IMG/VR virus record: IMGVR_UViG_3300021364_000005
Reading direction: 5' to 3' (one strand)
DNA: 64,000 nucleotides
From: a virus
Lineage: Duplodnaviria > Caudoviricetes
Of the stretch, positions 4,032-20,974 are shown piece by piece. The position numbers and the translations under genes were made by a program. The notes beneath the pieces are model-generated. The model ran no database searches, was not told the DNA's origin, and saw only the letters and a list, made by a program, of their open reading frames with translations. Position 1 is the first letter of the stretch, and every line of letters starts with the position of its first letter.

Positions 4032-7000
4032 CTACTTAGCTGTGAAAAGGTTTTGTTGTAGTCCCACTCCTGACATTCCTCCAATAGCAGTGACAGGTGC
4101 TGTAACTTTCAAAGACGTGCTTTCGCCCGACGGTAACAATCCTATTGTTTTATTTTGTATTTGAACGTCTCCTGCAATAAGTGTGTTAGCATTAACAACA
4201 GCACCACCACTTGAAATACGTGCTTCAAAATATCCTGCAATCGCTCGTTGAGTAGGCACAATATTGTCGCTATTAGCAACAAATGTTTGGTCTTTTGAAA
4301 ATTCTCTAACAACAGCACTTGTACCGCCTAATACAATACCACCTAATACAAGCTCATCTAATCCAGATAAGTCAAACTGGCTTGCACTAATTGTCACAAC
4401 ACCAGTAGCTTGGTCAACTTTAAACAGTTCGCCAACTCTAAAGTTACCATCTTGATCTGTTGATGTATAGAATACTCTACCACCGCCTGAACCAACTGTT
4501 TCTTGGAACTGTCGAGGTGTATTTTCACTTGTGTATCCAAATACATATCTATTAGGATATGCAGTTTCTGTAAAGTTACCTGTGCCTATATCTAAGAAGT
4601 CATGTCCTGTTAATCTTATTTGACTATATTTTTGTCTAATTTCTACTTGCGTGTCATGTTGTGGAGCAGTATTAGTATCTAAATTTGGAGTAATTTGTAA
4701 TCTAGCTGTAAGATTTGGTTCTGTACCCGTTACATCTTCAATTTTTTGTATACTAAATTGTGCTCCTGGTAATGATCCAAATGTAAGAGCATCACCTGGA
4801 CCAGGAATTCTTAAAAGATCTTTAACAAATATAATACCACTGCTTGGGAATATATCTGCATATCCATCTCCTAATATTTCTACAGATGCCCGTGTATATT
4901 CGATACCGCCACTAGTTAAAAACGGTTGTGCTAAAACGCCATCGTTTACTCTAAATTGATACACAGCATCTATAGTTGAGTTTTGATCGTAAATTATTCC
5001 CTCTGGCAGAGTGTTATACCCAGCACCTGGATTTACAATATTAATCTGGTCTAAGCTCTGACTTCTCACACTACATCTTGCAATAGCAGGTGTACCATAT
5101 GTAATAGGAGTAATAGTGCTTGCACTACTGTTATTGGCAGGAATGTAATAGTGCTGCCCTGTGCATGAAATCAAATTAACTGCTCTAACGTCAACACCTC
5201 CAGTAGGAGTAAGTGGATACCAATTAATTGCATCAACACTAGCAACTGTTGCACCTGTATTTGCCATAGCAAAATATAATCCTTGTTCACCTGTTACATA
5301 CCATGTAGCAATACTTGTTTCTGTAAGATTACTTGGATTTGGTTTAATGCTTTCTTGTAAATTAAATACAGGTGTTTGATCACCTGAAACATGGGCAACT
5401 ACAGTTCTTGCCGGATTAACAGAAGTTGAGTCTCTAACCATTGCTACAAATGATCTCGGTCCACCATCAAAATCTGTTACAATGTAATTAGCAGGTAAAG
5501 GTAATCCTGACTGATTGTTACCTTGTATCCATGAACTTCCACTATCTTTTGATTCGTAGATATTTCCGTTTGTATCGCAAACCATCCAATAATCGCCAGA
5601 TACTCCTACAAAATTAAACCCAGATCCTAATCCAGTTGTTGATGTAGTCCAGCTGCTTCCGCCATCGGTAGATACATAAATGGCATCTGCTGACGGATTA
5701 GTAACCATAACAACATTACCTTGTGCTTTTATGTCGCTAAATGCTGTTCCTGGTATTGTGCCTGCGCTCCAATTTATTCCATCTGCTGATGTTTTACTAT
5801 TTCCACTTGCGCCTATTGCAATAAATTTGTCATTTACCCAAACACATCCTATCCAGTCATCGGAGTCAGAAACTGATGCATTTGTCCAACTTGTACCTCC
5901 GTCTGTACTGTATGAAAACACACTGCCTTGAACACTTGTTAAAACTACAGTATTTTCACCATCAGTAGCAGAAGCACCAATTCTCTTAAAACTACCAGTA
6001 GATACAGATCCAGCGTTAAATCCAGGTTTGTTTATGTCTAAATATGGCTCTATAGAATATCTTGTAGTTCCATCTAAACTAGATTCTATTGGTTTGCCTT
6101 CTATTATTGTATTCCATCCCGGTTGACCCCATATGTTAGTAATTGTTGCAACTTTTGTGGAAAAATCATATGTATCGATTTTGCCCCATTGACCTGCACC
6201 TATACCTTTAATAATCCATATACACATACCTACATAATCATTAGACACATTTTCGTCAGCTGCTGCTAATGTAATTTGTGTTTCAGATCCAGCTTGAGCA
6301 TTATTTTCAATTCTTCTAAATCCAAAACCACCAGCTGTTGAAGAGTCGTCAGCATCTAATAAACGTACTTGAGATACTCCGCGTTTTCTAAAATCGTTAT
6401 AGGTTAAGTTAGCACTTACCCCAGACCCTGTAACTGTTGTAGTTGCGTTTGAATATTCTTGTCCTGCGTGTTCGTACACCAACCCTACAACCCTATCATC
6501 ATTGTCAATAATTGTAGCTTCAACTAGTGCTTCACTTGTTCGGTTATCTAAAACTGCACTAATTGCTGATTCTGCTGTGTTCGATCCTTCTGCAACAGAT
6601 CCATAATCTCCGTAGGAATTATTTCCGTTTGTAGCTCTTAACTTACCGCCGTTTGTAGCAAGATAACCTATATGGCAATAGTATGTAAATACAGAAACAA
6701 GTTCAGACTTTCCTTCTTCATTTGCCCAATAACCGATACCATCACTTAGAATTTGTGTAAAGTCGTTAGCAACCATTGACTTGTTACCACCATCGTGTAA
6801 CTCTCCATCAATTTTCATACCTATACATCCTGTTCCAAATGTTGTAACATTTTGGACGTAAGGAGATTTACTAGTAATCCAAACACTTTGGTCTGTAGGT
6901 CCTGTTCCAGGATCTAGTGCAACATATGCTCCTGCATTAGGTCTACGTGTAAAATATGAATTTTGTTCACCTAATTCACCATTTAATCCTTGTAAAGTAC

Positions 7001-9146
7001 AATTTCTTAACCCTGTTCCATTATGCATTCTAAACATATCACTTAGTTCAAATGTTGGAGCAGGTTTTATTACTGTGCTTCTAAGTTCGTCACCTACTAT
7101 AGCAGTATCTGTAGGAACAACTATAGGAAGAACTTCTGAATATGTACCCGTTTTTACAAATATTGTTGCAGGGCGTCTACCTGCATCAGCACCAACATAT
7201 TCACAAGCATATTTAATTGTTCTAAACGGACTTCCTTCAGTTCCTGCTGTAGGAATATCTTGCCCTCGTAGCGAAACATAATATGTATTATCGGCGAAAT
7301 TTAACGAATCCCAAGTAACAATATTTGTGTTATCTACTACTAATGTAGATCCTACAGAACCTACAGGTTTTCTTACATCTGCTCCGTCTTCTCTAGTTTT
7401 AAGGTCTCCCCTGTTGTTTAGAACGTTTGTTGCACTGCCTTCATAAAAAGTTTCCCAGTAACTGCCGTCGTCAACATTAGGAGCAACTAAACTACTATCA
7501 TCTGACGAGTGAGATTGTATACATACATATGAACTGCCTGCAAAACCGACTACATCGCCTAAAGTATAATATGTTGCTTCTTGCCAAGGGCCTTTCCAAT
7601 CGTTACCTGTAACAATTTTAACCCAACTTGAACTATCACTAGTAAATGTAATACCATTAGTGTCATACATTCCTGAATGGTTAACACATACAATGTAAAT
7701 AGTACCTGCGTTTGGAGCAACTAATTCTATACTTCTTGAGGTTTCAGCATCGTCAAAGTTATCAAAATAATCTTCTCGTGTGCTTGCCACTCCGTCTATT
7801 CTATATGTAACATTTGTTTCATAATAATTGTAACTACCGCCATCATGATGACCGTTTTGTGTTGTGCTAAAATATATTGCGTGTCCTGAATTTGTAATAC
7901 TTGATTGATCAAAAACGTAAGTATTACCAGCTACTAAATTAAGTGCAGGGGATTGAGTATTATTTACAAAATACTTATTAGAAGAATTTACGTTTTCTAC
8001 TGTAACTGTATAAGTTATAGTCTGAATAGGTTCAAAAGGATAAGAACTTGTATCTTGGATTGCACTAAAAATATTACCGCCTTCACGAATTGTATCTCCT
8101 GAATAATAATATGTATTTTCAGTCCATTGACCTCTCCAATTATAACCTTCAACTACGATTTCCCAATTTGGACTTCCTGCAGGTAAGTTACCTAAATTGT
8201 TATCTAGCAAACTTCTATAACTATATCCACCATACATAACAATATCACCATACTGATATGTTGTTAGTGAATTATATAATGTTTCGTATCCTGTTCCTGG
8301 AATATAAAGTTGAAATGCGCCTTGTGGAAACTCTGTAGTGTTTGTAAGTGTGATACATTTTTGGAGACTACTTCCTACTCTTACAACATCGCCTACAAGA
8401 TAAGTTGTATTGGCTGTCCATGTGCCCATGTAACGAACACCATCTAAAATTAATTCCCAGTTGCTACTATTGCCTTCTAAACCTATTAACGCACTTGCAT
8501 CACTTGAATGTCCTACTGTACATCTGTATAGTCTTGCACCATATCTTACAATATTATCTTTATAATATCTAGTTGCTACGGTCCAGGTATTTCTCCATTG
8601 TGACCCTCTGTTTACATAGGTCCAATTTACAATATCGTTTTCTAAGCCTTGCGAAGCATCTGACGCAATATGTCCGGTAGTACAAATATATGTTGATCCG
8701 TTGTAATTTATTACATCACCTAATTCATACTGTCTACCTGCAACCCAAAAATCTCGCCAGTCAAAAGTTGTAGCGACAAAATCCCAATAGTCTATATTTT
8801 CAACTAGTCCGTCTATAGATAAATCAGCACTTGTATGACCTGTATTTGCTTTATATAAAGTTGCACCATACTTGACTATTTCGTTTTGTTCATACTTTGT
8901 TTGTGTTGTCCACAAACCTCTCCATTTTTGTCCATCTGACATTAATTCCCAGCGTGGTTCTGGATTGCCATATTGATCTACTGCGTTTAAATCATTATCA
9001 AATGTGGCCGGATCAGCAATGTGTCCTATTAAACAAACGTAAATTTTACCGCCATTTGATACAATATCGTCTTGATTGTAAGATATGCCAGATCCGTGTG
9101 GACCTCTCCAAACATATTTAAATCGTGTAATATTAAACTCTGCCAT
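4032..9146 (-). CDS. 1704-aa virion structural/adhesin protein: CBM5/12-like repeats, cupredoxin-like domain, pectin-lyase-like beta-helix, BNR/Asp-box propeller, conserved C-terminal module
   Basis: ORF track. Motifs GHAIYF...CVNHSGM, VKTGTYSEVLPIVVP..AIVGDELRS, Asp-boxes YSTDGGTSW/VSTDGGSSW/ESKDSGSSW, and GRVFYTSTDQDGNFRVG. Confidence 0.85.
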   Translation of the reverse strand: MAEFNITRFKYVWRGPHGSGISYNQDDIVSNGGKIYVCLIGHIADPATFDNDLNAVDQYGNPEPRWELMSDGQKWRGLWTTQTKYEQNEIVKYGATLYKANTGHTSADLSIDGLVENIDYWDFVATTFDWRDFWVAGRQYELGDVINYNGSTYICTTGHIASDASQGLENDIVNWTYVNRGSQWRNTWTVATRYYKDNIVRYGARLYRCTVGHSSDASALIGLEGNSSNWELILDGVRYMGTWTANTTYLVGDVVRVGSSLQKCITLTNTTEFPQGAFQLYIPGTGYETLYNSLTTYQYGDIVMYGGYSYRSLLDNNLGNLPAGSPNWEIVVEGYNWRGQWTENTYYYSGDTIREGGNIFSAIQDTSSYPFEPIQTITYTVTVENVNSSNKYFVNNTQSPALNLVAGNTYVFDQSSITNSGHAIYFSTTQNGHHDGGSYNYYETNVTYRIDGVASTREDYFDNFDDAETSRSIELVAPNAGTIYIVCVNHSGMYDTNGITFTSDSSSWVKIVTGNDWKGPWQEATYYTLGDVVGFAGSSYVCIQSHSSDDSSLVAPNVDDGSYWETFYEGSATNVLNNRGDLKTREDGADVRKPVGSVGSTLVVDNTNIVTWDSLNFADNTYYVSLRGQDIPTAGTEGSPFRTIKYACEYVGADAGRRPATIFVKTGTYSEVLPIVVPTDTAIVGDELRSTVIKPAPTFELSDMFRMHNGTGLRNCTLQGLNGELGEQNSYFTRRPNAGAYVALDPGTGPTDQSVWITSKSPYVQNVTTFGTGCIGMKIDGELHDGGNKSMVANDFTQILSDGIGYWANEEGKSELVSVFTYYCHIGYLATNGGKLRATNGNNSYGDYGSVAEGSNTAESAISAVLDNRTSEALVEATIIDNDDRVVGLVYEHAGQEYSNATTTVTGSGVSANLTYNDFRKRGVSQVRLLDADDSSTAGGFGFRRIENNAQAGSETQITLAAADENVSNDYVGMCIWIIKGIGAGQWGKIDTYDFSTKVATITNIWGQPGWNTIIEGKPIESSLDGTTRYSIEPYLDINKPGFNAGSVSTGSFKRIGASATDGENTVVLTSVQGSVFSYSTDGGTSWTNASVSDSDDWIGCVWVNDKFIAIGASGNSKTSADGINWSAGTIPGTAFSDIKAQGNVVMVTNPSADAIYVSTDGGSSWTTSTTGLGSGFNFVGVSGDYWMVCDTNGNIYESKDSGSSWIQGNNQSGLPLPANYIVTDFDGGPRSFVAMVRDSTSVNPARTVVAHVSGDQTPVFNLQESIKPNPSNLTETSIATWYVTGEQGLYFAMANTGATVASVDAINWYPLTPTGGVDVRAVNLISCTGQHYYIPANNSSASTITPITYGTPAIARCSVRSQSLDQINIVNPGAGYNTLPEGIIYDQNSTIDAVYQFRVNDGVLAQPFLTSGGIEYTRASVEILGDGYADIFPSSGIIFVKDLLRIPGPGDALTFGSLPGAQFSIQKIEDVTGTEPNLTARLQITPNLDTNTAPQHDTQVEIRQKYSQIRLTGHDFLDIGTGNFTETAYPNRYVFGYTSENTPRQFQETVGSGGGRVFYTSTDQDGNFRVGELFKVDQATGVVTISASQFDLSGLDELVLGGIVLGGTSAVVREFSKDQTFVANSDNIVPTQRAIAGYFEARISSGGAVVNANTLIAGDVQIQNKTIGLLPSGESTSLKVTAPVTAIGGMSGVGLQQNLFTAK

Positions 9147-9159
9147 ATTCTACTTCTTC

Positions 9160-9528
9160 CTAAACATCGGTTGGATATTCGTAACCTTGGTTAATTCTAA
9201 CAACAAATTCGCCGTCATCGTTTATGTAATAATATACGTTTCTATCATCCCAACGGAATTGTTCATAATTTAAATTCCTATAAACTATATTATGATACGT
9301 ATCTCTACCTTCAAAAAAGTCTTGTCCTGGTTGGAAATTAGGGTAATCTTGGCTAGGATCATCACCAACGTTATTAATTTGAATACCGTCGGCTACGTCA
9401 AGTTGATCAACTTTTGCAAAATGTAAATATCCGTCTGGGTCTCTTCTAAGTCCATAAAAATATCTTGCACCCTGTAAGGAATCTTGTAAAACTCCTACAT
9501 CATTACCTACATAAAAATCTGACATCAT
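9160..9528 (-). CDS. Hypothetical phage protein, 122 aa; paralog of 20468..20974
   Basis: Shares R(Y/F)FYGLR...KVD.LD..DGI.IN..G, DFFEG.D..H and Y.Q(F/Y)..DDR...YY(I/V).D.GE...R with 20468..20974. TAAATA promoter immediately upstream. Confidence 0.8.
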   Translation of the reverse strand: MMSDFYVGNDVGVLQDSLQGARYFYGLRRDPDGYLHFAKVDQLDVADGIQINNVGDDPSQDYPNFQPGQDFFEGRDTYHNIVYRNLNYEQFRWDDRNVYYYINDDGEFVVRINQGYEYPTDV

Positions 9529-9544
9529 TTATCTCCAGTTATTG

Positions 9545-9552
9545 TATTTATC
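9545..9552 (-). promoter_or_regulatory. T4-like late promoter GATAAATA
   Basis: Intergenic, about 17 nt upstream of the ATG at 9528. One of nine intergenic TAAATA copies; the T4 gp55 consensus is TATAAATA. Confidence 0.7.
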
Positions 9553-9562
9553 AAGTTACGTT

Positions 9563-12500
9563 TTATAGATCGCCTGTATTTGTGCTAGGATATGCTCTAT
9601 TTGGTCCCCATATAATTCTTACTGCGCCGTCACCGCCATCACCGCCTCTATGTGTACTACCGTTAACTGTTGCTGCGGATACTGCACCGCCTCCTCCTCC
9701 ATATGAACCGCCATAACCGCCATTTGTTGCGTTATAGCCGCCTGGATTAGAGCCACCGCTATTACCTCCAGATCCTCCACGACCTCCAGACCCAGCACCT
9801 CCTGCTGCACCTGATGACCCTTCACCTAACAATCCAACACCGCCTCCTGCAGGTGCACCTACTAATCCATAAGTTTGTCCGCTACCGCCGCCACCACCTC
9901 CGGCTCCATTAGTACCCGAAGTTGTGCCATACCCGCCATCACCGCCGCGGCCGCTATAACCGCCAGCGCCACCACCGCCACCGCCCCAGCTATTAGGCGC
10001 CGCAACACCACCACTTTGTCCTCCACGACCTCCGAATCCGTTACTTAGAGGACTGGTACTATATATGTAATTTCCACCTTTTGAACTACTGGTACTTGTG
10101 TAGACAACATTTCCGCTTGCTGCAAGGCCGCCTTGTCCGCCACTAGCCCATAGGTAGCCAGTCCCTTGATAATCTATTCTAGATTCACCACCTCTAGCTC
10201 CATTTCCAGTACCACCAGTACCGCCTGCTCCTACAGTAATGTCTAAAACTTGTCCGCCAGTTACAGGTATTGAAACAGCAAATCCAAGGTTGCCTCCGCT
10301 GCCGCCAGACCCAGAATACGATCCTGTGCTGCCGCCGCCACCTGCTCCGCCGCCACCTACTACTACAGCACTTATTGAAGTAACACCTGTTGGTACAGTC
10401 CAAGTAGTTGTTCCTGGAGTAGTAAATGCAACTTGTCCTACTGGATTAGCGGTAATTGTTATATCACTTGATGTGGCTCTAGTAATGCTCGAATCTATTT
10501 CATCGGTTATTTTTACTGTAAATGTTTCATCTGTGTTGTCTGCATCATCAGATGTTCCTACATTAATAACAGCAGAATTATTGTAAACATAAATTTGTTT
10601 GCTGTCTGGATTAGGAGTTTTTATATTTAAAATATTGCTCATTCCATAATGGTATTCACAAATATAGTAAAGAGTGTCAGGAGCAGTCAACGGAACTGTA
10701 AATACAACTGCTCCAGATTCAGCACCATTTCCTGTTACTCCGTTGCTGAACAAACTACCCGTTCCTGTTCCTCGTGCAGTTTTTATGTAAAAAGGATGCC
10801 CTGACGCACTAATATTGAATGTGTACGTAAATCCTCTGTATAATGTCATTTCTGGATTATTTACACTAGACAACTCTTCACCGTTAAATGTATAAGCACT
10901 TGCACCACTATTAGTTACAGCATATGTAAACGAAGTTTGAGCATTTGCAAAATCGCTCTGTGTAGTACCTGTACTCGAAGCTAACCAGTTTAATTTTGTT
11001 CCATCATTAATGTTAGTTGTTGTTAGATTAATTGCTAAACTATTACCTTCCAATACACTAGTACCATTTGGATAAGAAAATGTATAAGTAGGAGCAACAT
11101 TATTATCAGTTATCGTAACAGTAACTAGATTGCCATTTGTAGGATATGTATATCCGCCACTTAAATTGTATATTTCAAAAATATTATTTGTGTCACCTAT
11201 ATAACTTGTTGCATCCGTAGTAGGTACCCCAATAGTGACAGATGTTTGTCCAGCATTAAATTGTCCAGTTCCGCTTGATAAACTAATGCGCTGATCCCCT
11301 GTTCCTACGACTCTCCATGCAAATGTTGGTGTATCGGAATAATTTTCTACTCCGTCTACTGTGCTTGTTCTGGTAACTACAAGGCTAATACTATTACCTT
11401 CTTCTACAGAACTTTCAGCTACTGAAATCGACATTAGTTTTACCACTGCAAGAACATCTTGAATAGTAATTGTACAAGTGTCCCCGACGATAGTATAGTT
11501 ATTAGTTGCTGTTATTAACCTTAGAGTGTTTGTTGTATTAGTTTGGGCACCTGATTCTGACGAAATAGGAATTACAATAGTTGCTGTAGATTCTCCAGAT
11601 ATAAAGTTTACAGTTCCTACATTTTGGCTTATTCTATCATCGTTAGCTGTAGTAATTCTCCAAGAAACAGAAGATCCTTCATTAGGTGTAGCTGCAACTC
11701 CGTTGATTTTGTAAACTCTTGAAACTTCTATTGCAGTGCTGTTGCCTTCTTCTACTGTTTCAGTTGATGCTACACTAATTGACCTAAATACGTTATTTAA
11801 ATTTAATGTTGCTGAAGAAGTTGAAATAGTATATTTAGGATCCGATATATTAGTTATGTTTATAGTATTAGTAGTTGAATCACTGTCGGTGTTACCTGCA
11901 GACATAGAAACGTTAAATGATGCTGTATTTTCTCCTGCAGGAATTACAACTGTTCCTGAAGTGGGCGAAATACGACTATCTGGATTTGATATTGACCAAC
12001 TAACTGTTATGTCATGATTGTTATTTACTATACCATTTCTAGTTGCTGTTCTAGAAACTGTAATTGCACTTGTAGTACCTTCGGTTAAGTTATACGAGTT
12101 AGCTAAAAATCCTGCCGTATATGTAGGAGGATTAGGATTTGCAGTTATTTCTATATCTACTGTAACTCCTGTTTGATTAGCAGTAAATAGATATTGATCG
12201 CTAAGACTTCTTGCACAAACTCTATAAGTTCCTACGCTATTTCCTACTTGTCCAACAGAGTCATCTAACACAGGTATACATAATGTTTTTGTTACAGTAT
12301 TAGCAGATGCATCAGGTTTAAATTGATGAAGTAACCAACAAGTCCCTGTTGCATTTGTTGATAAACTTGAAGGAATACTTAATGTTGATCCGCGTGTGCT
12401 AACATTGTATTCAAAAGTTGGTGTATCGCTAGTATAATAAACAGTTCCTGGTTGAGATGTATTTTCGTACAAATCTTTCGTTCTATTACTAGGATAATTA

Positions 12501-13843
12501 CGGTCATTACCCCAAATAATTCTTACAGCACCTTGTGTACCAGAGTCGCCTGCTCTAGAATCTCCTTGGTCTCCAGGCCAGCCTGCGCCTCCGCCTCCAG
12601 CACCAAAGTAACCATCTCCAACTGTTCCATTGCTTTTGTATCTACCATCTGATCCTAAAGATCCATTTGTACCACCACCGCCGTTTGACAATGTTCCTGC
12701 GCTACCGCTAGTTCCATCAAACCCGTATATTCCAGTACTTCCTGCTTTTCCGTATCTATACCCACCTGCTCCGGCACCACCATTACCATCTTGTGCTGAT
12801 TGATAATTTGCATCACCTACTTCGTATGCAATACCACCTGCGCCACCACTACCTGTATAACCACCAGCGCCGCCTCCAGCACCTGGATATCCTGTTTCTA
12901 TAGCACCTTGTTGCGTGTATAAAACTGATATACCTCCGCCTTGGCCGCCAGCGCCACCACCAGCACAAGTAGATCCTCCAGCAGTTAAATCAGTTATATA
13001 TGTTCCTCCCGAGCCGCCATCATTTGATGTGTTGCCTCTTTGAGAAGTGCCGCCACCGCCACCGCCGGCACATAAAATCATCGAACCACCTGTTATACAA
13101 ACCGCAGAGTCTCCTCCAGCTGATCCGGAAAGTCCTGAATTACCTGTGCCGCCATTACCTACTTCAATTTCAAGAGTTCCTCCTGGAGTTACACTTACAT
13201 CTTGCATCCATGCTAACGCTGCACCTCCGCCACCTTTACCCCAAGATCCAAACTGCCCTGATACTGCTCCGCCACCTGCTCCGCCTCCGCCTATAGCTGC
13301 TATGCTAACAGATGAAACATTTGACGGTATTGTCCATGTGCAGTTTTGGGTAAAGAGCTGTTGTCCTTGAACAGGTTGATTGTCTATTGCAAAGGTTTTG
13401 ATAAAAGGTATTTCAAACTGTGCGCCTGCATTATCGTAAACACTTGTTATAGCAGATCCAAAATCAATAGCTACAGATTTGCCTGTCGGCCCTGTCGCTG
13501 TTTGTGTTAAAACAAATGGTGGCGACATTATAGTTTTAGAACCCACTGTGGCCAGTAATCTTACAGTTTGGTTTGTAAATGTTCCGCTATGCGAAATAGT
13601 TAATTTTGTAACATTATATCCAGTAGTATCTACACCTGCGGCTGCAAAAGCATAATTAGGAGCACTTGCTGTCTCTCCTTCTAATGTTTCTATCGACCAT
13701 ACAGTATTAGTTACGTCGGCCGCTAAATGATAGTCTACAGAAGTATTCGAAGGTGAAATAACAATATAATCATGATCAGTTAAAACAATGCCGTCACCAG
13801 CACTGCTACTTGAAAGTATTGCTAATTTACCTATATCTGCCAT
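9563..13843 (-). CDS. 1426-aa tail fibre/adhesin: two Gly-rich domains, several Calx-beta/Ig-like domains, one cupredoxin-like domain
   Basis: Two WT(I/V)P..V.S(V/I)S....GGGG...GAVRIIWG..R.YPS domains, repeated .EG.S...V.R Ig-like units, and GHPFYIK...YYICEYHYGM. Confidence 0.85.
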   Translation of the reverse strand: MADIGKLAILSSSSAGDGIVLTDHDYIVISPSNTSVDYHLAADVTNTVWSIETLEGETASAPNYAFAAAGVDTTGYNVTKLTISHSGTFTNQTVRLLATVGSKTIMSPPFVLTQTATGPTGKSVAIDFGSAITSVYDNAGAQFEIPFIKTFAIDNQPVQGQQLFTQNCTWTIPSNVSSVSIAAIGGGGAGGGAVSGQFGSWGKGGGGAALAWMQDVSVTPGGTLEIEVGNGGTGNSGLSGSAGGDSAVCITGGSMILCAGGGGGGTSQRGNTSNDGGSGGTYITDLTAGGSTCAGGGAGGQGGGISVLYTQQGAIETGYPGAGGGAGGYTGSGGAGGIAYEVGDANYQSAQDGNGGAGAGGYRYGKAGSTGIYGFDGTSGSAGTLSNGGGGTNGSLGSDGRYKSNGTVGDGYFGAGGGGAGWPGDQGDSRAGDSGTQGAVRIIWGNDRNYPSNRTKDLYENTSQPGTVYYTSDTPTFEYNVSTRGSTLSIPSSLSTNATGTCWLLHQFKPDASANTVTKTLCIPVLDDSVGQVGNSVGTYRVCARSLSDQYLFTANQTGVTVDIEITANPNPPTYTAGFLANSYNLTEGTTSAITVSRTATRNGIVNNNHDITVSWSISNPDSRISPTSGTVVIPAGENTASFNVSMSAGNTDSDSTTNTINITNISDPKYTISTSSATLNLNNVFRSISVASTETVEEGNSTAIEVSRVYKINGVAATPNEGSSVSWRITTANDDRISQNVGTVNFISGESTATIVIPISSESGAQTNTTNTLRLITATNNYTIVGDTCTITIQDVLAVVKLMSISVAESSVEEGNSISLVVTRTSTVDGVENYSDTPTFAWRVVGTGDQRISLSSGTGQFNAGQTSVTIGVPTTDATSYIGDTNNIFEIYNLSGGYTYPTNGNLVTVTITDNNVAPTYTFSYPNGTSVLEGNSLAINLTTTNINDGTKLNWLASSTGTTQSDFANAQTSFTYAVTNSGASAYTFNGEELSSVNNPEMTLYRGFTYTFNISASGHPFYIKTARGTGTGSLFSNGVTGNGAESGAVVFTVPLTAPDTLYYICEYHYGMSNILNIKTPNPDSKQIYVYNNSAVINVGTSDDADNTDETFTVKITDEIDSSITRATSSDITITANPVGQVAFTTPGTTTWTVPTGVTSISAVVVGGGGAGGGGSTGSYSGSGGSGGNLGFAVSIPVTGGQVLDITVGAGGTGGTGNGARGGESRIDYQGTGYLWASGGQGGLAASGNVVYTSTSSSKGGNYIYSTSPLSNGFGGRGGQSGGVAAPNSWGGGGGGAGGYSGRGGDGGYGTTSGTNGAGGGGGGSGQTYGLVGAPAGGGVGLLGEGSSGAAGGAGSGGRGGSGGNSGGSNPGGYNATNGGYGGSYGGGGGAVSAATVNGSTHRGGDGGDGAVRIIWGPNRAYPSTNTGDL

Positions 13844-14772
13844 TAGCTAAATGCCTGTCCTGCTATAAATGCATACCAAGATGTTCCGCCATTAGTAGAA
13901 ATCGCAGAAATTATATCAGTTCCTGATTGAGTAAGCGTTGGTGCAGATCCGTTAGCCCACTGGAAACTAGGAGGCCAAGTTATTCCAAAACTCGCACTAT
14001 TTGTAATTATAAAAGTTAATGTTGTGCCTGACGTTGGTACATTATTAATGCTAACAGTGTTTACAGCACTATCTAAAGATACTGAAAAAACACTAGAAGC
14101 ACTACAATCAACTGTTAAAATATTACTTGCTGGGCTTATTGATGCAACAGGTTCTGTGTTTCTGCCTTTTACGTAAATGTTTCCTTTCATAGTTCCGTGA
14201 ATAGAACATTGATAAGTCCAAGTTTCGCTATTATTATCTGGCGGAGTTGCATATAAAGTACCGTCAACTTTTCCTTGTGCATCGGCTCCTGTGCTTACAG
14301 TACCAGTTGGGCTGACATGAACTATGTAATCACCAGTAATATTCTGTCCATTTTGTTGTAATTGAAAAGGATGTCCATTACAGTCCAAATGAAATGCAAC
14401 AGTATCTCCTGCTGTAACAGATATATTTTGATTAGTATCTCCGCCATCAAAAACATATGCATTTCCTGATGTAGTTACTGCATATGTACGTGCTGCATTT
14501 TTGTAAATTTGATCGTATGTCTTTGTAGCATTCTGCCAAGCTGTTCCGTTATAATATAACAATGCACCTGATGTAGGACTACTAATAAGTGTATCAGTTA
14601 ATCCAGCAAAAGTCGACGATCCTGTGCCGCCGCCGCCACCTCCGCCTCCACTACCAGAGTCAGATATAACTGCTTTCCATAAATTTTTTGCAGATACATA
14701 TGTGTAAACTGTATTTCCTACAACAAATTCTTGGTTGTTTACAGGATTGCTGGGAAAGTCTATTGCTGCCAT
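13843..14772 (-). CDS. 309-aa tail fibre-type protein with cupredoxin-like domain and C-terminal beta domain
   Basis: N-terminus MAAIDFPSNP, Gly linker, GHPFQL...YQCSIHGTM, and C-terminus ITWPPSFQWANGSAPTLT..GTDII of a kind seen in phage tail proteins. The stop overlaps the next start. Confidence 0.8.
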   Translation of the reverse strand: MAAIDFPSNPVNNQEFVVGNTVYTYVSAKNLWKAVISDSGSGGGGGGGGTGSSTFAGLTDTLISSPTSGALLYYNGTAWQNATKTYDQIYKNAARTYAVTTSGNAYVFDGGDTNQNISVTAGDTVAFHLDCNGHPFQLQQNGQNITGDYIVHVSPTGTVSTGADAQGKVDGTLYATPPDNNSETWTYQCSIHGTMKGNIYVKGRNTEPVASISPASNILTVDCSASSVFSVSLDSAVNTVSINNVPTSGTTLTFIITNSASFGITWPPSFQWANGSAPTLTQSGTDIISAISTNGGTSWYAFIAGQAFS

Positions 14773-17965: not shown

Positions 17966-19495
17966 CTATGTTGCAGAACTAGGATAACTTCTGCCTTGCC
18001 CCCAAATAATTCTTACTGCGCCAGGTAACGGAGTAGAACCGTCTTGTCCCAAAAACCATCTATAATAAAATCTAGCACCATAACTAGTTATAATTGCTTG
18101 ATCTCGAATTCTACCACCAGCGCCACCACCACCACCGCCGCCGGCTCCAGAACCATTATTTGGAGCAGTTGAGCCGATTGCACTACTACCTGTGCCACCT
18201 TTAGTTCCACTATTGTAATTAATTACAAGTGGATTTGTACTAGTTACAAGATTAGGCGCACTGGTTCCGCCACCACCTGTGCCACCTTGTCCATAAATAT
18301 TTGTTCCGCCGCCCGGACCACCGCTGGCTTGTTTGTAATAGTTATATCCACCAGTACTTCTATAAAAGTCACCTAATCCACTACCGCCTTGGCCGCCACC
18401 GCCTCCGGTGCCATATCCTCCGGCTCCGCCACCGCCGCCAGGCCTTACACCACTGTTGCCACTCGCGCCTGCATTACCATTTGATCCATTAGATCCTCCA
18501 CTAGAGGTGCCATAGCTAGGATTTGTATAATATGCTCCTCCTGCTCCTCCACTAGTAATAGTGCTAGGCCGATTGCCTCCTTCGCCTCTAATATAAACAA
18601 CCGAATCTTTTGCAAGAAAACTCTGTCCACCATTGCTAGGATAATTGTAATTGTTCATTGTCGGATAAAAAGTTAGATATGAACCTGAATTGCTAGAAAC
18701 ATATTCAAAAGGAGTATTATAACTTGTAGATCCTCTGCTTCCTGCTGATCCTACTTGTACGGTAAAGGTATCTCCTGGTTGACATGATATACCATTCATC
18801 CAAGCAAGGCCTCCGCCTCCGCCTCCACCACCACTTCCGTTACTGTAATATCCTGTTGCTCCTCCAGCACCTCCTCCTATAACAACAGCACTTATGTCAA
18901 CAACACCGGAAGGAACAGTAAAGGTATAGGAACCAGGACTTACATAAATTTGTTCTCCTGAAACTACAGTAGTTGTTACATCATTAATAACAACAGTTTG
19001 AGATAAGGAGCCTGTAGGATTTCCTAAACTATCATTTTGAGCAAGGGTTAAAGTAAAAGATTCAGCCCCTTCAGTAGCACCATCTAAACTAATACTACAA
19101 AATAATGATGCAACTCCACTGCCAATTGTTAAAGTACCAGTGAGCGAACTTAGTCCTAAATCTGCTGCTGTTACACCATCTCCTGTAATTGTATAAGCTA
19201 TAGTGACACCATCTTCTGTGTATGGAGCAACTAGTTCGAATACTACAGACTGTCCTTCATCGACAGTTGTTTTGTTTGCAGTCAGTGTAAACGGAGCAGC
19301 AACTTCTTGAGATTCTAATATCTTCCAAACACTGCCGTTGAATACTACAAAATCTTCTAAACTATCAATATAAGCAATTTGTCCTATATCTACATCATAT
19401 TCGAGATCATCAGGAGTTGCATAAATTAAAGTATTGGCAATATTATCAACTTCGTTACCGTCGATGTCGTACCGCAATTTTTTATAAACTGCCAT
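17966..19495 (-). CDS. 509-aa tail adhesin: anchor, Calx-beta/Ig-like domain, Gly-rich domain
   Basis: FTLTANKTTVDEGQSVVF...EGAESFTLTL; FTVPSGVVDISAVVIGGG...GAVRIIWGQGRSYPS. Confidence 0.8.
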   Translation of the reverse strand: MAVYKKLRYDIDGNEVDNIANTLIYATPDDLEYDVDIGQIAYIDSLEDFVVFNGSVWKILESQEVAAPFTLTANKTTVDEGQSVVFELVAPYTEDGVTIAYTITGDGVTAADLGLSSLTGTLTIGSGVASLFCSISLDGATEGAESFTLTLAQNDSLGNPTGSLSQTVVINDVTTTVVSGEQIYVSPGSYTFTVPSGVVDISAVVIGGGAGGATGYYSNGSGGGGGGGGLAWMNGISCQPGDTFTVQVGSAGSRGSTSYNTPFEYVSSNSGSYLTFYPTMNNYNYPSNGGQSFLAKDSVVYIRGEGGNRPSTITSGGAGGAYYTNPSYGTSSGGSNGSNGNAGASGNSGVRPGGGGGAGGYGTGGGGGQGGSGLGDFYRSTGGYNYYKQASGGPGGGTNIYGQGGTGGGGTSAPNLVTSTNPLVINYNSGTKGGTGSSAIGSTAPNNGSGAGGGGGGGAGGRIRDQAIITSYGARFYYRWFLGQDGSTPLPGAVRIIWGQGRSYPSSAT

Positions 19496-20475
19496 TACTT
19501 CTCCTTCAGTAACCAGCCAACTGACGTGTTTACGTATACAAGACTTGATCCTGCATAATCAACATCAACTGTTAAACTTTCTGCAAGACCTTGAATAAAG
19601 TGTTGTGAACTTGAAACAGTCAAATTGTTAGTAGCAAAAGTGCCTCCTATATCTAAAAACCTTACTTCGTCTCCTGTTGAAGGATTTGTAGGTAGGTTAA
19701 TTGTAATAGCACCAGATGATGTATTTGTAAACACTAGAGTATTTGCAGCAACATTATACGGACTATCGGAACTTGTAATAGTGACATTTGACAAATTTTG
19801 TCCTCCACCACTGCCACTACCTCCTGTGTTGTCTATAAATTCAATTGCTGTTCCGGTTGCATTTACTGCTAGTATTTTATTAGCCGCAGCTGACATAGAA
19901 GACGGAGTATCTGTCAGTCCAACAAATGAACTACTTCCACTACCACCGCCTGTGCCATTATATGTTTCAATTATACCACTGCCATTTGTTTGTACCCATA
20001 CACTTTCAGTGCTGTACCATACAGCTAATATACCTAATTCACTATCGTACCACAAATCACCAGCAGCCGGGCTAGTAGGAGGAGTTGTCGAAACTGTTAC
20101 ACTTGCGCCACCTGAACCACCTGAACCACCGCTGCCTGTTATTGTTAAAATATTATTAGTCAAAGAAGTTGTTATACCAGTGCCGCCTACAATCGCAAAT
20201 GTAGTGCTTCCTGGTGCTGCTGCTGAAGTTCCTGTATCTGCTTGAATAGAGTTGTATGCAGTGCTTGAACTTGTAGTAGGAACAAAACCTGTACCGTTGT
20301 ATGCTAAAACTTGTCCATTCGTAGCATTATCTATACTAATTTTTAAACTAGATCCGTCACCTATTGCATTATAAACTTCACTAAAATTACTGTTTACTTT
20401 TCCTGCACCCGAACGTAGGCTATCACCTGTTCCGTCGTTAGCTGCTAATCCTGTTTGTATTTCTTGTCTAGCCAT
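19495..20475 (-). CDS. T4 gp9/gp10-family baseplate wedge / tail-fibre connector, 326 aa
   Basis: Start revised to ATG 20475. N-terminus MARQEIQTGLAANDGTGDSLRSGAGKVNSNFSEVY matches the T4 gp10/gp9 N-terminal motif (DDGTGD.LR.GG.KIN.NF.E.Y). C-terminal ITINLP..P..GD.V...D..G.F..NNLTV module. Confidence 0.75.
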   Translation of the reverse strand: MARQEIQTGLAANDGTGDSLRSGAGKVNSNFSEVYNAIGDGSSLKISIDNATNGQVLAYNGTGFVPTTSSSTAYNSIQADTGTSAAAPGSTTFAIVGGTGITTSLTNNILTITGSGGSGGSGGASVTVSTTPPTSPAAGDLWYDSELGILAVWYSTESVWVQTNGSGIIETYNGTGGGSGSSSFVGLTDTPSSMSAAANKILAVNATGTAIEFIDNTGGSGSGGGQNLSNVTITSSDSPYNVAANTLVFTNTSSGAITINLPTNPSTGDEVRFLDIGGTFATNNLTVSSSQHFIQGLAESLTVDVDYAGSSLVYVNTSVGWLLKEK

Positions 20476-20974
20476 TTGGATCCTCGTTATCAAATTTCAA
20501 GTCTTTATTATCAAATGTAATTGTTACTAAGTCAAATGTAGGAAATACACTTAACTTTCTATAATCTTTTTGTGGAGGATTCAGCGGGACATCTGGTATT
20601 GTTATTGTTCCTTCGCCAATTCCTTGGAAAACTCTTAATGTAAGTTCTCCGTTGTCGTCTACATAATAATTAAAGTCTCTATCATCAAATTTATACTGAC
20701 TGTAAATTAAATTTCCGTATCTAGTTTCATGAAATTCATCTATACCTTCGAAAAAATCGCTTCCTGGGATAAAATGGGGGAAGTCTTGATCTGCATAATC
20801 TCCGATTCCGTTAATTACAATTCCGTCATCACTATCTAAACTATCAACTTTACCTAAAATAAGTTCACCTTCTTCGGCACGTAGCCCGTAGAAAAATCTT
20901 TGCCCGGCTGTTTGTTTTGCAACAATCCTCGGATTATTTCCTACATACCATTTAGTTGCTTTGCTACGAGCCAT
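20468..20974 (-). CDS. Hypothetical phage protein, 168 aa; paralog of 9160..9528
   Basis: See the paralog. Extra C-terminus ends FD..TITFDNKDLKFD. Confidence 0.75.
   Translation of the reverse strand: MARSKATKWYVGNNPRIVAKQTAGQRFFYGLRAEEGELILGKVDSLDSDDGIVINGIGDYADQDFPHFIPGSDFFEGIDEFHETRYGNLIYSQYKFDDRDFNYYVDDNGELTLRVFQGIGEGTITIPDVPLNPPQKDYRKLSVFPTFDLVTITFDNKDLKFDNEDPNG

What the first reader, a model, noticed from the sequence alone, without database searches (positions are those of the whole stretch)
7650..14480. Three type-1-copper (cupredoxin) motifs in neighbouring virion-type proteins
Seen in sequence: GHAIYF...CVNHSGM (7668-7688), GHPFYI...CEYHYGM (10640-10660) and GHPFQL...CSIHGTM (14188-14208). 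Established: His plus C-x2-H-x2-M is the amicyanin-type blue-copper ligand loop. All four ligands are intact in three otherwise divergent copies, which suggests selection. Inference: the virion displays copper sites. These could serve redox or ROS protection, metal-mediated receptor binding analogous to the iron-in-fibre hypothesis, or structure only.
Basis: partly seen in the sequence, partly recalled or inferred. Interest (0 to 1): 0.65.

Follow-up and report, generated by a model that had tools for sequence, protein, structure and literature searches.

The report
Blue-copper-type domains on phage tail fibres
Three neighbouring tail-fibre genes of an uncultured 300-kb marine phage each carry a small domain with the predicted fold and all four metal-binding residues of blue copper proteins such as plastocyanin, so the virus particle probably displays bound copper, which nobody has yet tested.

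Summary
Composition predicts 0.004 such motifs; three are present.

Two of the three domains were modelled, and nearly all their structural matches are cupredoxins. The third fits the family profile at E 1e-49.

The family is large: 6,404 cluster representatives. It has no fitting Pfam model. It occurs in tail and baseplate proteins of marine cyanophages, including the C-terminus of their "gp9", in many uncultured viruses, and in secreted Flavobacteriaceae lipoproteins.

The ligands are under selection:
- 206 of 234 complete copies keep all four.
- No copy that lost the Cys keeps the second His.
- Orthologues of the most divergent window copy keep them down to 43% identity.

Copper binding, and any role for it, remain inference. 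My best reading is a metal-locked, surface-exposed module. Redox sensing, metal mimicry and an unloaded site are not excluded.

I found no paper describing this. This scan has already reported the same module at least eight times on other genomes. New here are a GAP32/Rak2-like jumbo phage as carrier, the coupled-loss statistics and the flavobacterial CHRD-lipoprotein relatives.

The parts
4032..9146 (-). P0001, a 1704-aa tail-fibre-type protein. An N-terminal array of CBM5/12-type repeats is followed by the cupredoxin domain. By eye, one more such repeat follows, then a beta-helix-like region, Asp-box (BNR-like) repeats and a C-terminal fibre domain.
   Evidence: Pfam CBM_5_12, 7 stretches, E 5e-32. 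phrog_9851 tail fiber, E 1e-170.
7617..8024 (-). Cupredoxin domain of P0001 (aa 375-510), the most divergent of the three copies. Ligand codons: His422 7881-7883, Cys487 7686-7688, His490 7677-7679, Met493 7668-7670.
   Evidence: Family HMM E 1e-16. AlphaFold model pLDDT 74; almost all of the top 50 structural matches are cupredoxins, best Z 8.2. Ligands invariant in 5 orthologues at 43-84% identity.
9563..13843 (-). P0002, a 1426-aa fibre-type protein. It has two glycine-rich domains (aa 166-380 and about 1124-1425) and central repeated beta domains, with the cupredoxin domain between them.
   Evidence: Pfam Gly_rich_2. phrog_4474 and phrog_677.
10589..10966 (-). Cupredoxin domain of P0002 (aa 960-1085), the copy closest to the family consensus. 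Ligand codons: His1016 10796-10798, Cys1062 10658-10660, His1065 10649-10651, Met1068 10640-10642.
   Evidence: Family HMM E 1e-49. 57-61% identical to the C-terminal domain of Flavobacteriaceae CHRD lipoproteins. 49% identical to Prochlorococcus phage P-SSM5. Not modelled; placed by homology.
13843..14772 (-). P0003, a 309-aa short fibre or spike protein. Order of parts: N-terminal attachment-type segment, Gly linker, cupredoxin domain, C-terminal beta-sandwich. Its stop codon overlaps the P0002 start codon by one base.
   Evidence: AlphaFold pLDDT 77 overall. An 88%-identical homologue is named 'plastocyanin' by JGI.
14143..14520 (-). Cupredoxin domain of P0003 (aa 85-210). Ligand codons: His134 14371-14373, Cys189 14206-14208, His192 14197-14199, Met195 14188-14190. 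Cys189 ends the second-last strand, and His192 and Met195 lie in the loop before the last strand.
   Evidence: pLDDT 81-93 across the domain, with strands at 184-189 and 196-202. Residues 84-204 match nitrite reductase and multicopper oxidase cupredoxin domains at Z 9-11, auracyanin B at Z 7.8, rusticyanin at Z 7.7 and amicyanin at Z 6.8. Pfam Copper-bind scores 16.6 bits, below its 21.2 cut-off.
13846..14157 (-). C-terminal beta-sandwich of P0003 (aa 206-309), a phage spike or fibre-tip-type domain that also occurs without the cupredoxin domain.
   Evidence: Matches Pseudomonas phage Pa223 capsid spike at Z 8.3, Klebsiella phage KP1 baseplate at Z 7.4 and CBA120 TSP4 at Z 6.6. Shared with P0019 and P0021, which lack the cupredoxin part. 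phrog_9017 tail fiber.

Best explanation
Each of the three adjacent tail-fibre-type proteins carries one copy of a mobile 110-130-residue cupredoxin module. The module belongs to a very large family with no fitting Pfam model. The family is shared by structural proteins of marine and freshwater viruses and by secreted bacterial lipoproteins.

The module keeps a complete mononuclear type-1 (blue) copper site. The upstream His follows a Gly, and Cys-x2-His-x2-Met spans the loop between the last two strands, which is the shortest natural loop type, as in amicyanin.

Shown here: the motifs, the predicted fold, family membership, and selection on the four ligands as a unit.

Inferred: each domain holds one metal ion, most likely copper, on the outside of the virion. 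The ion's main job would be to lock a small, protease-resistant, rigid knob that projects from the fibre and helps it survive, and possibly touch the host surface. Catalysis is unlikely. Because copies without ligands keep the fold inside the same proteins, the fold has a use of its own, and the metal site is a frequent but not obligatory addition.
For: - Motifs: exact coordinates, with a chance expectation of 0.0036 against 3 seen.
- Fold: P0003 residues 84-204 match only cupredoxins, Z up to 11.2. The P0001 domain gives almost only cupredoxins, Z up to 8.2. Foldseek's top hits are all copper nitrite reductases, laccases and related multicopper-oxidase-type proteins, best E 1.5e-6.
- Topology: the ligand positions fit a type-1 site.
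- Sequence profile against PDB: most of the 16 hits are cupredoxins, with auracyanin B best at E 0.004. hhalign places the family's Cys, His and Met on those of phage S-SSM5 plastocyanin.
- Family size: 6,404 representatives at E<=1e-3 and 2,941 at E<=1e-10.
- Ligand conservation: 206 of 234 complete copies read HCHM. This holds for 65 of 86 'further' copies, which are less biased by ranking. The Cys-versus-second-His table is 208/3/0/23.
- Loop length is fixed in 233 of 250 copies.
- P0001 orthologues keep the ligands down to 43% identity while neighbouring positions vary.
- All nine copies sampled from cultured cyanophages at 31-49% identity read HCHM.
- Cellular relatives are exported lipoproteins, the compartment where real cupredoxins work.
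Against: - No metal was measured. Everything about copper is inference.
- The three window domains do not reach Pfam's Copper-bind cut-off: 16.6 bits against 21.2 for P0003, and no match for the other two.
- Similarity to plastocyanin is marginal (hhalign probability 2%).
- The proteins have no signal peptide and must fold in the host cytoplasm. By general knowledge, free copper is extremely scarce there, and recombinant cupredoxins often pick up zinc.
- The residue after the first His is Pro, not the Asn of classical cupredoxins.
- I had no model coordinates, so the geometry of the site could not be measured.
- The ligand counts come from the 150 best-scoring representatives and are biased towards intact copies. 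In further copies 24% are degenerate, so the site is dispensable in some contexts.
- The 'stabilising knob' role is my inference, with no direct test.
Confidence: 0.6

Rival explanations
1. The copper centre is used as a redox centre. The virion-displayed type-1 site would exchange electrons with, or sense the redox state of, something at the host surface or in the water, such as reactive oxygen species. Its oxidation state would modulate fibre or baseplate behaviour, for example adsorption.
For: Electron transfer is the only established function of type-1 sites (general knowledge). The exposed C-terminal His and the short amicyanin-type loop are kept. Pfam's nearest model, PF25489, is named after At5g54830, a gene listed among the T-DNA lines in a paper on plant CYBDOM (cytochrome b561-DOMON) redox proteins. 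Among cultured phages the module is almost confined to phages of photosynthetic hosts. Some cyanophages adsorb only in the light, by an unknown mechanism (bioRxiv 10.1101/167650).
Against: No partner is known. P-GSP1 carries an intact copy yet adsorbs in the dark, while P-HM2, which also carries one, does not, so presence does not track light dependence. Degenerate copies persist in the same proteins. The host of this phage is unknown, and its capsid is related to phages of heterotrophs.
Confidence: 0.13
2. Metal mimicry, a copper version of the Ferrojan Horse idea. The copper-loaded domain would imitate a copper-carrying protein or ligand that a host outer-membrane uptake receptor recognises, helping the fibre to dock.
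For: The iron version has been proposed for phage tail fibres (bioRxiv 10.1101/674382). The closest cellular copies are surface or periplasmic lipoproteins of Flavobacteriaceae, so a host could plausibly have a partner for this fold. The domains sit in fibre proteins, the parts that touch the host.
Against: No receptor is known. The flavobacterial genes have no conserved copper or TonB-receptor neighbour in the three loci examined. The module occurs in proximal baseplate proteins (gp9, gp7) as well as in fibres, which does not look like a dedicated receptor-binding tip.
Confidence: 0.07
3. The fold is what counts. On real virions the site would be empty or hold zinc, and the four residues would be retained for folding or by recent descent from cellular cupredoxins. 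The domain would be one more Ig-like decoration.
For: Assembly in the cytoplasm without an export signal argues against copper loading (sequence; general knowledge). About 12% of all complete copies, and 24% of further copies, have lost the ligands and still keep the fold. Many cupredoxin-fold domains in nature bind no copper, for example SufI and EfeO among the structural matches.
Against: The four residues are among the best-conserved columns, at or above the level of most conserved core positions, across thousands of diverged clusters. Cys and the second His are lost together (208/3/0/23), which is what a site that works as a unit predicts. A lone exposed Cys in otherwise Cys-poor extracellular proteins (57 Cys in 20,668 residues) is costly unless it is liganded.
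Confidence: 0.2

Closest known systems
Amicyanin and other single-domain type-1 blue copper proteins (plastocyanin/azurin family PF00127; auracyanin, rusticyanin, pseudoazurin)
   Same: Greek-key cupredoxin fold. The ligand set is His plus Cys, His and Met in the loop between the last two strands. The C-x2-H-x2-M spacing is the same as in amicyanin. Auracyanin B is the best profile hit in the PDB (E 0.004). Structural Z scores are 6.8-7.8 to amicyanin, rusticyanin and auracyanin B.
   Different: It is not a free, exported electron carrier. It is a module inside giant phage fibre proteins made in the cytoplasm. It scores below Pfam's cut-off. Pro replaces the usual Asn after the first His. No redox partner is known.
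C-terminal domain of cyanophage 'gp9' (baseplate wedge tail fiber connector; T4-like gene cluster 398) and related gp7, gp10-like and proximal-fibre proteins of Kyanoviridae
   Same: The same module at 31-49% identity with the same four ligands. It is part of the tail or baseplate. phrog_677 matches P0003 and P0002 through this domain.
   Different: This phage is not a T4-like cyanophage. Its capsid protein is about 70% identical to those of GAP32, CBB and similar jumbo phages, and in the cultured-phage search the module was found almost only in cyanophages, with no Cronobacter, Pectobacterium, Erwinia or Vibrio phage among the hits. P0003 lacks the T4 gp9/10 N-terminal domain, so it is not a gp9 orthologue. 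The records annotate the cyanophage proteins without any mention of copper.
Flavobacteriaceae lipoproteins with CHRD repeats and a C-terminal cupredoxin-like domain (e.g. Muriicola marianensis, Polaribacter irgensii 23-P)
   Same: They are the closest cellular copies of the P0002 domain, at 57-61% identity, with an intact HCHM set.
   Different: They are exported lipoproteins of unknown function, fused to CHRD domains rather than to fibre domains. Their neighbouring genes are uninformative.
Metal sites and decoration domains already known on phage fibres: iron-binding sites proposed for tail fibres, the basis of the Ferrojan Horse hypothesis (bioRxiv 10.1101/674382), and Ig-like decoration domains (own knowledge)
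   Same: A metal-ligand set or a small beta-sandwich is displayed on a fibre. A structural role for the metal is plausible.
   Different: The metal would be copper, not iron, in a classic redox-type site inside an autonomous monomeric domain. It is not an inter-chain site along the fibre axis.

Membership tests
Cupredoxin fold / type-1 blue copper proteins | Greek-key beta-sandwich of the cupredoxin type | tested here: met
   P0003 residues 84-204: the matches are cupredoxin domains, Z up to 11.2, rmsd 2.5 A over 109 residues. P0001 domain: almost all of the top 50 matches are cupredoxins, Z up to 8.2. The P0002 domain was not modelled; it is placed by the family HMM at E 1e-49.
Cupredoxin fold / type-1 blue copper proteins | Four ligands in canonical positions: an upstream His, a Cys at the end of the second-last strand, and His and Met in the loop to the last strand | tested here: met
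   The sequences show them. In the P0003 model Cys189 ends strand 184-189, His192 and Met195 precede strand 196-202, and His134 precedes strand 136-140. The distances between the four side chains could not be measured, because no coordinates were available.
Cupredoxin fold / type-1 blue copper proteins | Sequence match to Pfam PF00127 (Copper-bind) at the curated cut-off | tested here: not met
   P0003 domain scores 16.6 bits against a cut-off of 21.2. The P0001 and P0002 domains give no match. One multi-copy relative, P0023, reaches 23.5 bits.
Cupredoxin fold / type-1 blue copper proteins | Binds one copper ion, with intense absorption near 600 nm and narrow EPR hyperfine splitting | not testable with these tools
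   This needs protein chemistry; see the next steps.
Cupredoxin fold / type-1 blue copper proteins | Ligands conserved in relatives (site under selection) | tested here: met
   206 of 234 complete copies read HCHM, with coupled loss of Cys and the second His. P0001 orthologues keep them. Nine of nine cultured cyanophage copies keep them.
Pfam PF25489 (At5g54830-like domain) | Match at the curated cut-off of 27 bits | tested here: inconclusive
   Relatives P0022 (41.8 bits) and P0023 (29.5 bits) pass. Five of 14 short members match at E<=0.01. The P0001 domain has no match at that threshold, and the per-member results for the other two window domains were not printed.
T4 gp9 baseplate wedge / tail fibre connector | T4 gp9/10 N-terminal domain (PF07880) | tested here: not met
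   It is absent from P0003 and P0002 and present in S-SSM5 gp9. The phrog_677 matches cover only the cupredoxin part: profile positions 266-409.

The most novel reading that the evidence does not exclude
The virion-displayed blue-copper centre is a working redox sensor or electron 'handshake'. Its oxidation state, set by the host surface, by light-driven redox chemistry or by reactive oxygen in seawater, would gate fibre or baseplate triggering. Many marine viruses would then carry a metal-based environmental sensor on their tails. That could underlie the unexplained light-dependent adsorption of some cyanophages, and it would make viruses a small but distinct pool of ligand-bound copper in the ocean.
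Probability: 0.1. Interest if true: 0.9.

Novelty: new variant of a known kind. Interest (0 to 1): 0.6.

Why it matters
Blue copper sites are textbook electron-transfer centres of respiration and photosynthesis, and none has been described on a virus particle. This module lies in thousands of protein clusters. It sits in the baseplate or fibres of most cultured marine T4-like cyanophages, which are among the most abundant viruses in the sea, and its ligands are clearly under selection.

If the site is loaded, it would show a new way for virions to use metals, whether for stability, sensing or docking. It would also link phage particles to marine copper chemistry, in waters where free copper is scarce and, by general knowledge, toxic to cyanobacteria. 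The idea is directly testable with existing cultured phages.

For annotation, a domain model for this family would explain a recurrent 'hypothetical' or 'gp9-like' region. It would also correct automatic 'plastocyanin' labels on structural proteins, which could be mistaken for photosynthesis genes carried by the virus.

Tried and rejected
- Chance motif: rejected. Composition predicts 0.0036; three are seen.
- DNA-level search of the region against 50,697 phage records: no match.
- Direct Pfam, NCBIfam and PDB sequence searches with single window proteins gave only sub-threshold or irrelevant hits. Examples are nanobodies and a chemokine receptor matched through the Gly run, and amicyanin TIGR02657 at E 0.026.
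- The search for related loci with the 14-sequence alignment failed for lack of a conserved stretch. A closer 6-sequence alignment worked, but its search patterns contain the ligand motifs. The loci were therefore not used for ligand statistics.
- Gene neighbourhoods of three flavobacterial homologues showed nothing related to copper or electron transfer.
- hhalign against a genuine phage plastocyanin aligned only the ligand loop (probability 2%). The family is a distant branch, not a plastocyanin copy.
- The idea that P0003 is a gp9 orthologue was rejected, because it has no gp9/10 N-terminal domain.
- A simple link between the module and light-dependent adsorption was rejected. P-GSP1 has the module and adsorbs in the dark.
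- Literature searches on cupredoxin, plastocyanin-like or copper-binding together with phage, tail fibre, baseplate or cyanophage found no description. Subscription journals are not covered.
Full report
**What is there**

The region holds three adjacent genes on the minus strand:
- P0001: 4032-9146, 1704 aa.
- P0002: 9563-13843, 1426 aa.
- P0003: 13843-14772, 309 aa. Its stop codon overlaps the P0002 start by one base.

Translation and a motif scan put CVNHSGM, CEYHYGM and CSIHGTM at 7668-7688, 10640-10660 and 14188-14208. Each is preceded 45-65 residues upstream by GHAI or GHPF.

Cysteine is rare in the window's long ORFs (57 in 20,668 residues). Composition predicts 0.0036 C-x2-H-x2-M motifs against three seen. 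A family HMM finds these three copies in the six-frame translation and no others (E 1e-49, 8e-28, 1e-16).

**Context**

All three proteins match phage tail-fibre or baseplate PHROGs.
- P0001 also has an array of CBM5/12-type repeats (Pfam, 7 stretches). By eye, the copper-type domain is spliced between the seventh repeat and one further repeat.
- P0002 has two glycine-rich fibre domains.
- P0003 is a short fibre. Its C-terminal 100 residues resemble phage spike and baseplate domains: Pa223 capsid spike at Z 8.3 and KP1 baseplate at Z 7.4.

The same gene block contains the major capsid gene. It is about 70% identical to those of the GAP32, CBB, Vibrio 2.275.O and Phosso jumbo phages. The protein collection records P0003 on a 303,728-base contig. 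The carrier is therefore an uncultured marine jumbo myovirus of the GAP32/Rak2-like lineage. Its host is unknown.

**Fold**

AlphaFold2 of P0003 with 16 homologues gives pLDDT 81-93 over residues 91-200. An all-against-representatives structural search aligns residues 84-204 to cupredoxin domains only:

| Match | Z |
|---|---|
| Copper nitrite reductases | 11.2-9.6 |
| Multicopper oxidases | about 9-10 |
| AcoP | 8.2 |
| Auracyanin B | 7.8 |
| Rusticyanin | 7.7 |
| Amicyanin | 6.8 |

Foldseek's top hits are all copper nitrite reductases, laccases and related multicopper-oxidase-type proteins (best E 1.5e-6).

The most divergent copy, in P0001, was modelled with 34 relatives (pLDDT 74). Almost all of its top 50 matches are again cupredoxins, best Z 8.2. 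That Z is middling by the tool's own note. The uniformity of the list is the argument here, not the score.

In the P0003 model, Cys189 ends the second-last strand. His192 and Met195 lie in the loop before the last strand, and His134 follows a Gly just before a central strand. This is the canonical type-1 arrangement. I had no coordinates, so I could not measure the distances.

**Sequence relationship to known copper proteins**

The relationship is distant.
- Pfam Copper-bind scores 16.6 bits for P0003, below its 21.2 cut-off, and nothing for the other two.
- A profile of 14 short family members hits mostly cupredoxins in the PDB, but weakly: auracyanin B at E 0.004, then laccases, auracyanin A, plastocyanin and pseudoazurin.
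- hhalign against the genuine plastocyanin of phage S-SSM5 aligns only the ligand loop. Cys, His and Met fall on Cys, His and Met, with the two-residue difference expected between C-x2-H-x2-M and C-x2-H-x4-M (E 0.023, probability 2%).
- Some multi-copy relatives do reach Pfam cut-offs, for PF25489 'At5g54830-like domain' (41.8 bits) and for Copper-bind (23.5 bits).

**Size and spread of the family**

A profile of the three window domains finds 6,404 cluster representatives at E<=1e-3 and 2,941 at E<=1e-10 among 1.84 billion. Copies often occur in tandem: the 149 best proteins hold 250 copies.

Among 50,697 cultured phage records, 357 carry the module. Of these, 349 are Synechococcus, Prochlorococcus or 'Cyanophage' records. 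It usually lies under 'gp9 baseplate wedge tail fiber connector'. It also occurs in gp7, gp10-like and proximal-fibre genes and in the podovirus P-GSP1. IMG/VR holds at least 573 viral contigs with close copies.

Cellular genomes hold it too. Of 157 loci, most are in Flavobacteriaceae. In those examined it is the C-terminal domain of lipoproteins with CHRD repeats. Other short members carry signal peptides or membrane anchors.

No GAP32-like cultured phage appears among the hits. The distribution therefore follows habitat, not phage lineage.

**Are the ligands under selection?**

In the 250 copies from the best 149 representatives, the four ligand columns are 89-95% conserved. That places them among the best-kept columns, alongside core positions such as G44, F49 and Y100. 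The Cys-to-Met segment is seven residues long in 233 of 250 copies.

Of 234 complete copies, 206 read His-Cys-His-Met. Ranking favours intact copies, so I split the set:
- The best copy of each protein is intact in 141 of 148.
- Further copies in the same proteins, a less biased sample, are intact in 65 of 86.

Losses are coupled. Cys is replaced in 23 copies, mostly by Ser, and none of these keeps the second His. Only 3 of the 211 copies with Cys lack it. The table is 208/3/0/23, Fisher p 7e-29, although related sequences inflate this.

The same pattern shows in close relatives:
- Five orthologues of P0001 at 43-84% identity keep His and C-x-N-H-x-x-M while flanking residues vary.
- A sixth relative at 35% identity has one intact copy and one with Ser and Thr in place of Cys and His.
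- Fourteen homologues of P0003 at 30-90% identity all keep the set.
- All nine full copies sampled from cultured cyanophages by tblastn, at 31-49% identity, read HCHM.

The all-or-none pattern is what a site that works as a unit predicts.

**How it most likely works**

Shown:
- a cupredoxin module with a complete, selected type-1 ligand set;
- its location in proteins that are, by homology, exposed tail parts.

Inferred:
- it binds one copper ion per domain.

My preferred role is a metal-locked, rigid, degradation-resistant knob that projects from the fibre and may contribute weak contacts with the host surface. The reasons are these:
- No partner or catalytic residues are apparent.
- The module appears in proximal baseplate proteins as well as in distal fibres.
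- Ligand-free copies keep the fold in the same proteins, so the fold has a use of its own.
- From general knowledge, copper greatly stabilises cupredoxins.

The main difficulty is loading. These proteins have no signal peptide and fold in the cytoplasm, where free copper is very scarce. The site might instead be filled after lysis, because type-1 sites bind copper extremely tightly (general knowledge). It might also hold zinc or stay empty.

The rivals are:
- a true redox or sensing role;
- copper mimicry of a host ligand, by analogy with the Ferrojan Horse idea for iron (bioRxiv 10.1101/674382);
- a fold-only decoration.

A link to the unexplained light-dependent adsorption of some cyanophages (bioRxiv 10.1101/167650) is tempting. 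Presence of the module does not track that trait, though. P-GSP1 has an intact copy and adsorbs in the dark, while P-HM2 also has one and does not.

**Comparison with what is known**

By fold and ligand set the domain is a cupredoxin of the type-1 kind, with amicyanin-like loop spacing. It fails the Pfam sequence threshold, so I file it as a distant, un-named branch rather than a member of PF00127.

It is not a gp9 orthologue. The phrog_677 matches cover only the shared module, and the gp9/10 N-terminal domain is absent.

JGI's pipeline already labels two relatives 'plastocyanin'. On a structural protein that label could be misread as a photosynthesis gene carried by the virus.

**Novelty**

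Six full-text searches found no description of a cupredoxin or copper site in phage tail or baseplate proteins. Subscription journals are not covered.

Within this scan the same module has already been followed up at least eight times on other genomes, with the same conclusion. I checked the central claims independently.

This window adds:
- a new carrier lineage, a GAP32/Rak2-like jumbo phage with three single copies in adjacent genes;
- the coupled-loss statistics;
- the flavobacterial CHRD-lipoprotein relatives;
- the Pfam PF25489 link.

**Limits**

- Only the 150 best representatives could be inspected.
- The P0002 domain was not modelled.
- Metal binding is untested.

Noticed in passing
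window 14380-14382 (P0003 Cys131): P0003 has a second Cys ('LDCNGHPF') three residues before the ligand His134. Its close homologues P0004 and P0005 share it, but the wider family does not. It could be an extra ligand, a disulfide partner of the ligand Cys in the oxidising outside world, or nothing.
   Followed up: no
window about 5550-5915 (P0001 aa about 1078-1200): Four Asp-box-like repeats (S/T-x-D-G-G-x-S/T-W, e.g. STDGGTSW, STDGGSSW, SKDSGSSW) suggest a BNR or sialidase-type beta-propeller inside the 1704-aa fibre protein. No Pfam match was reported.
   Followed up: no
window 7500-9146 (P0001 aa 1-550): The cupredoxin domain appears spliced into an array of CBM5/12-type repeats. Pfam finds seven stretches. 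By eye, one more repeat (aa 514-549) follows the domain directly. This fits a plug-in module.
   Followed up: partly
L002:1762-3345, L044:2515-3315, L017:1741-3315: Flavobacteriaceae (Muriicola, Polaribacter, Flavobacterium) encode lipoproteins made of one to three CHRD domains plus a C-terminal cupredoxin-like domain. That domain is 57-61% identical to the P0002 copy and has intact ligands. The function is unknown, the genes look monocistronic, and the neighbours are uninformative.
   Followed up: partly
P0177 (2110-aa relative of P0001), aa 575-711 and 1627-1764: One protein holds two copies. The first has an intact site (THPL...CYNHTGM). The second has Ser and Thr in place of Cys and the second His but keeps Met. 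It is a natural pair, one copy with the site and one without, that could be compared directly.
   Followed up: partly
window 13841-13845: The stop codon of P0003 and the start codon of P0002 overlap by one base, so the two genes are probably translationally coupled.
   Followed up: no
window 9160-9528 (-): A 122-aa ORF lies between the two giant fibre genes. It was not examined and could be a fibre chaperone or assembly factor.
   Followed up: no
window 17966-19495 and 19495-20493 (-): Two more fibre-module genes. One has the same glycine-rich family as P0002 (phrog_4474). The other starts with a gp9/gp10-type N-terminal segment (phrog_677 positions 1-71) but has no cupredoxin domain.
   Followed up: partly
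L165 (Prochlorococcus phage P-HM2 gp7): Beside its intact copy, the giant gp7 baseplate protein has a weak, partial, ligand-free copy (KDHT at the four positions, E 0.009).
   Followed up: no
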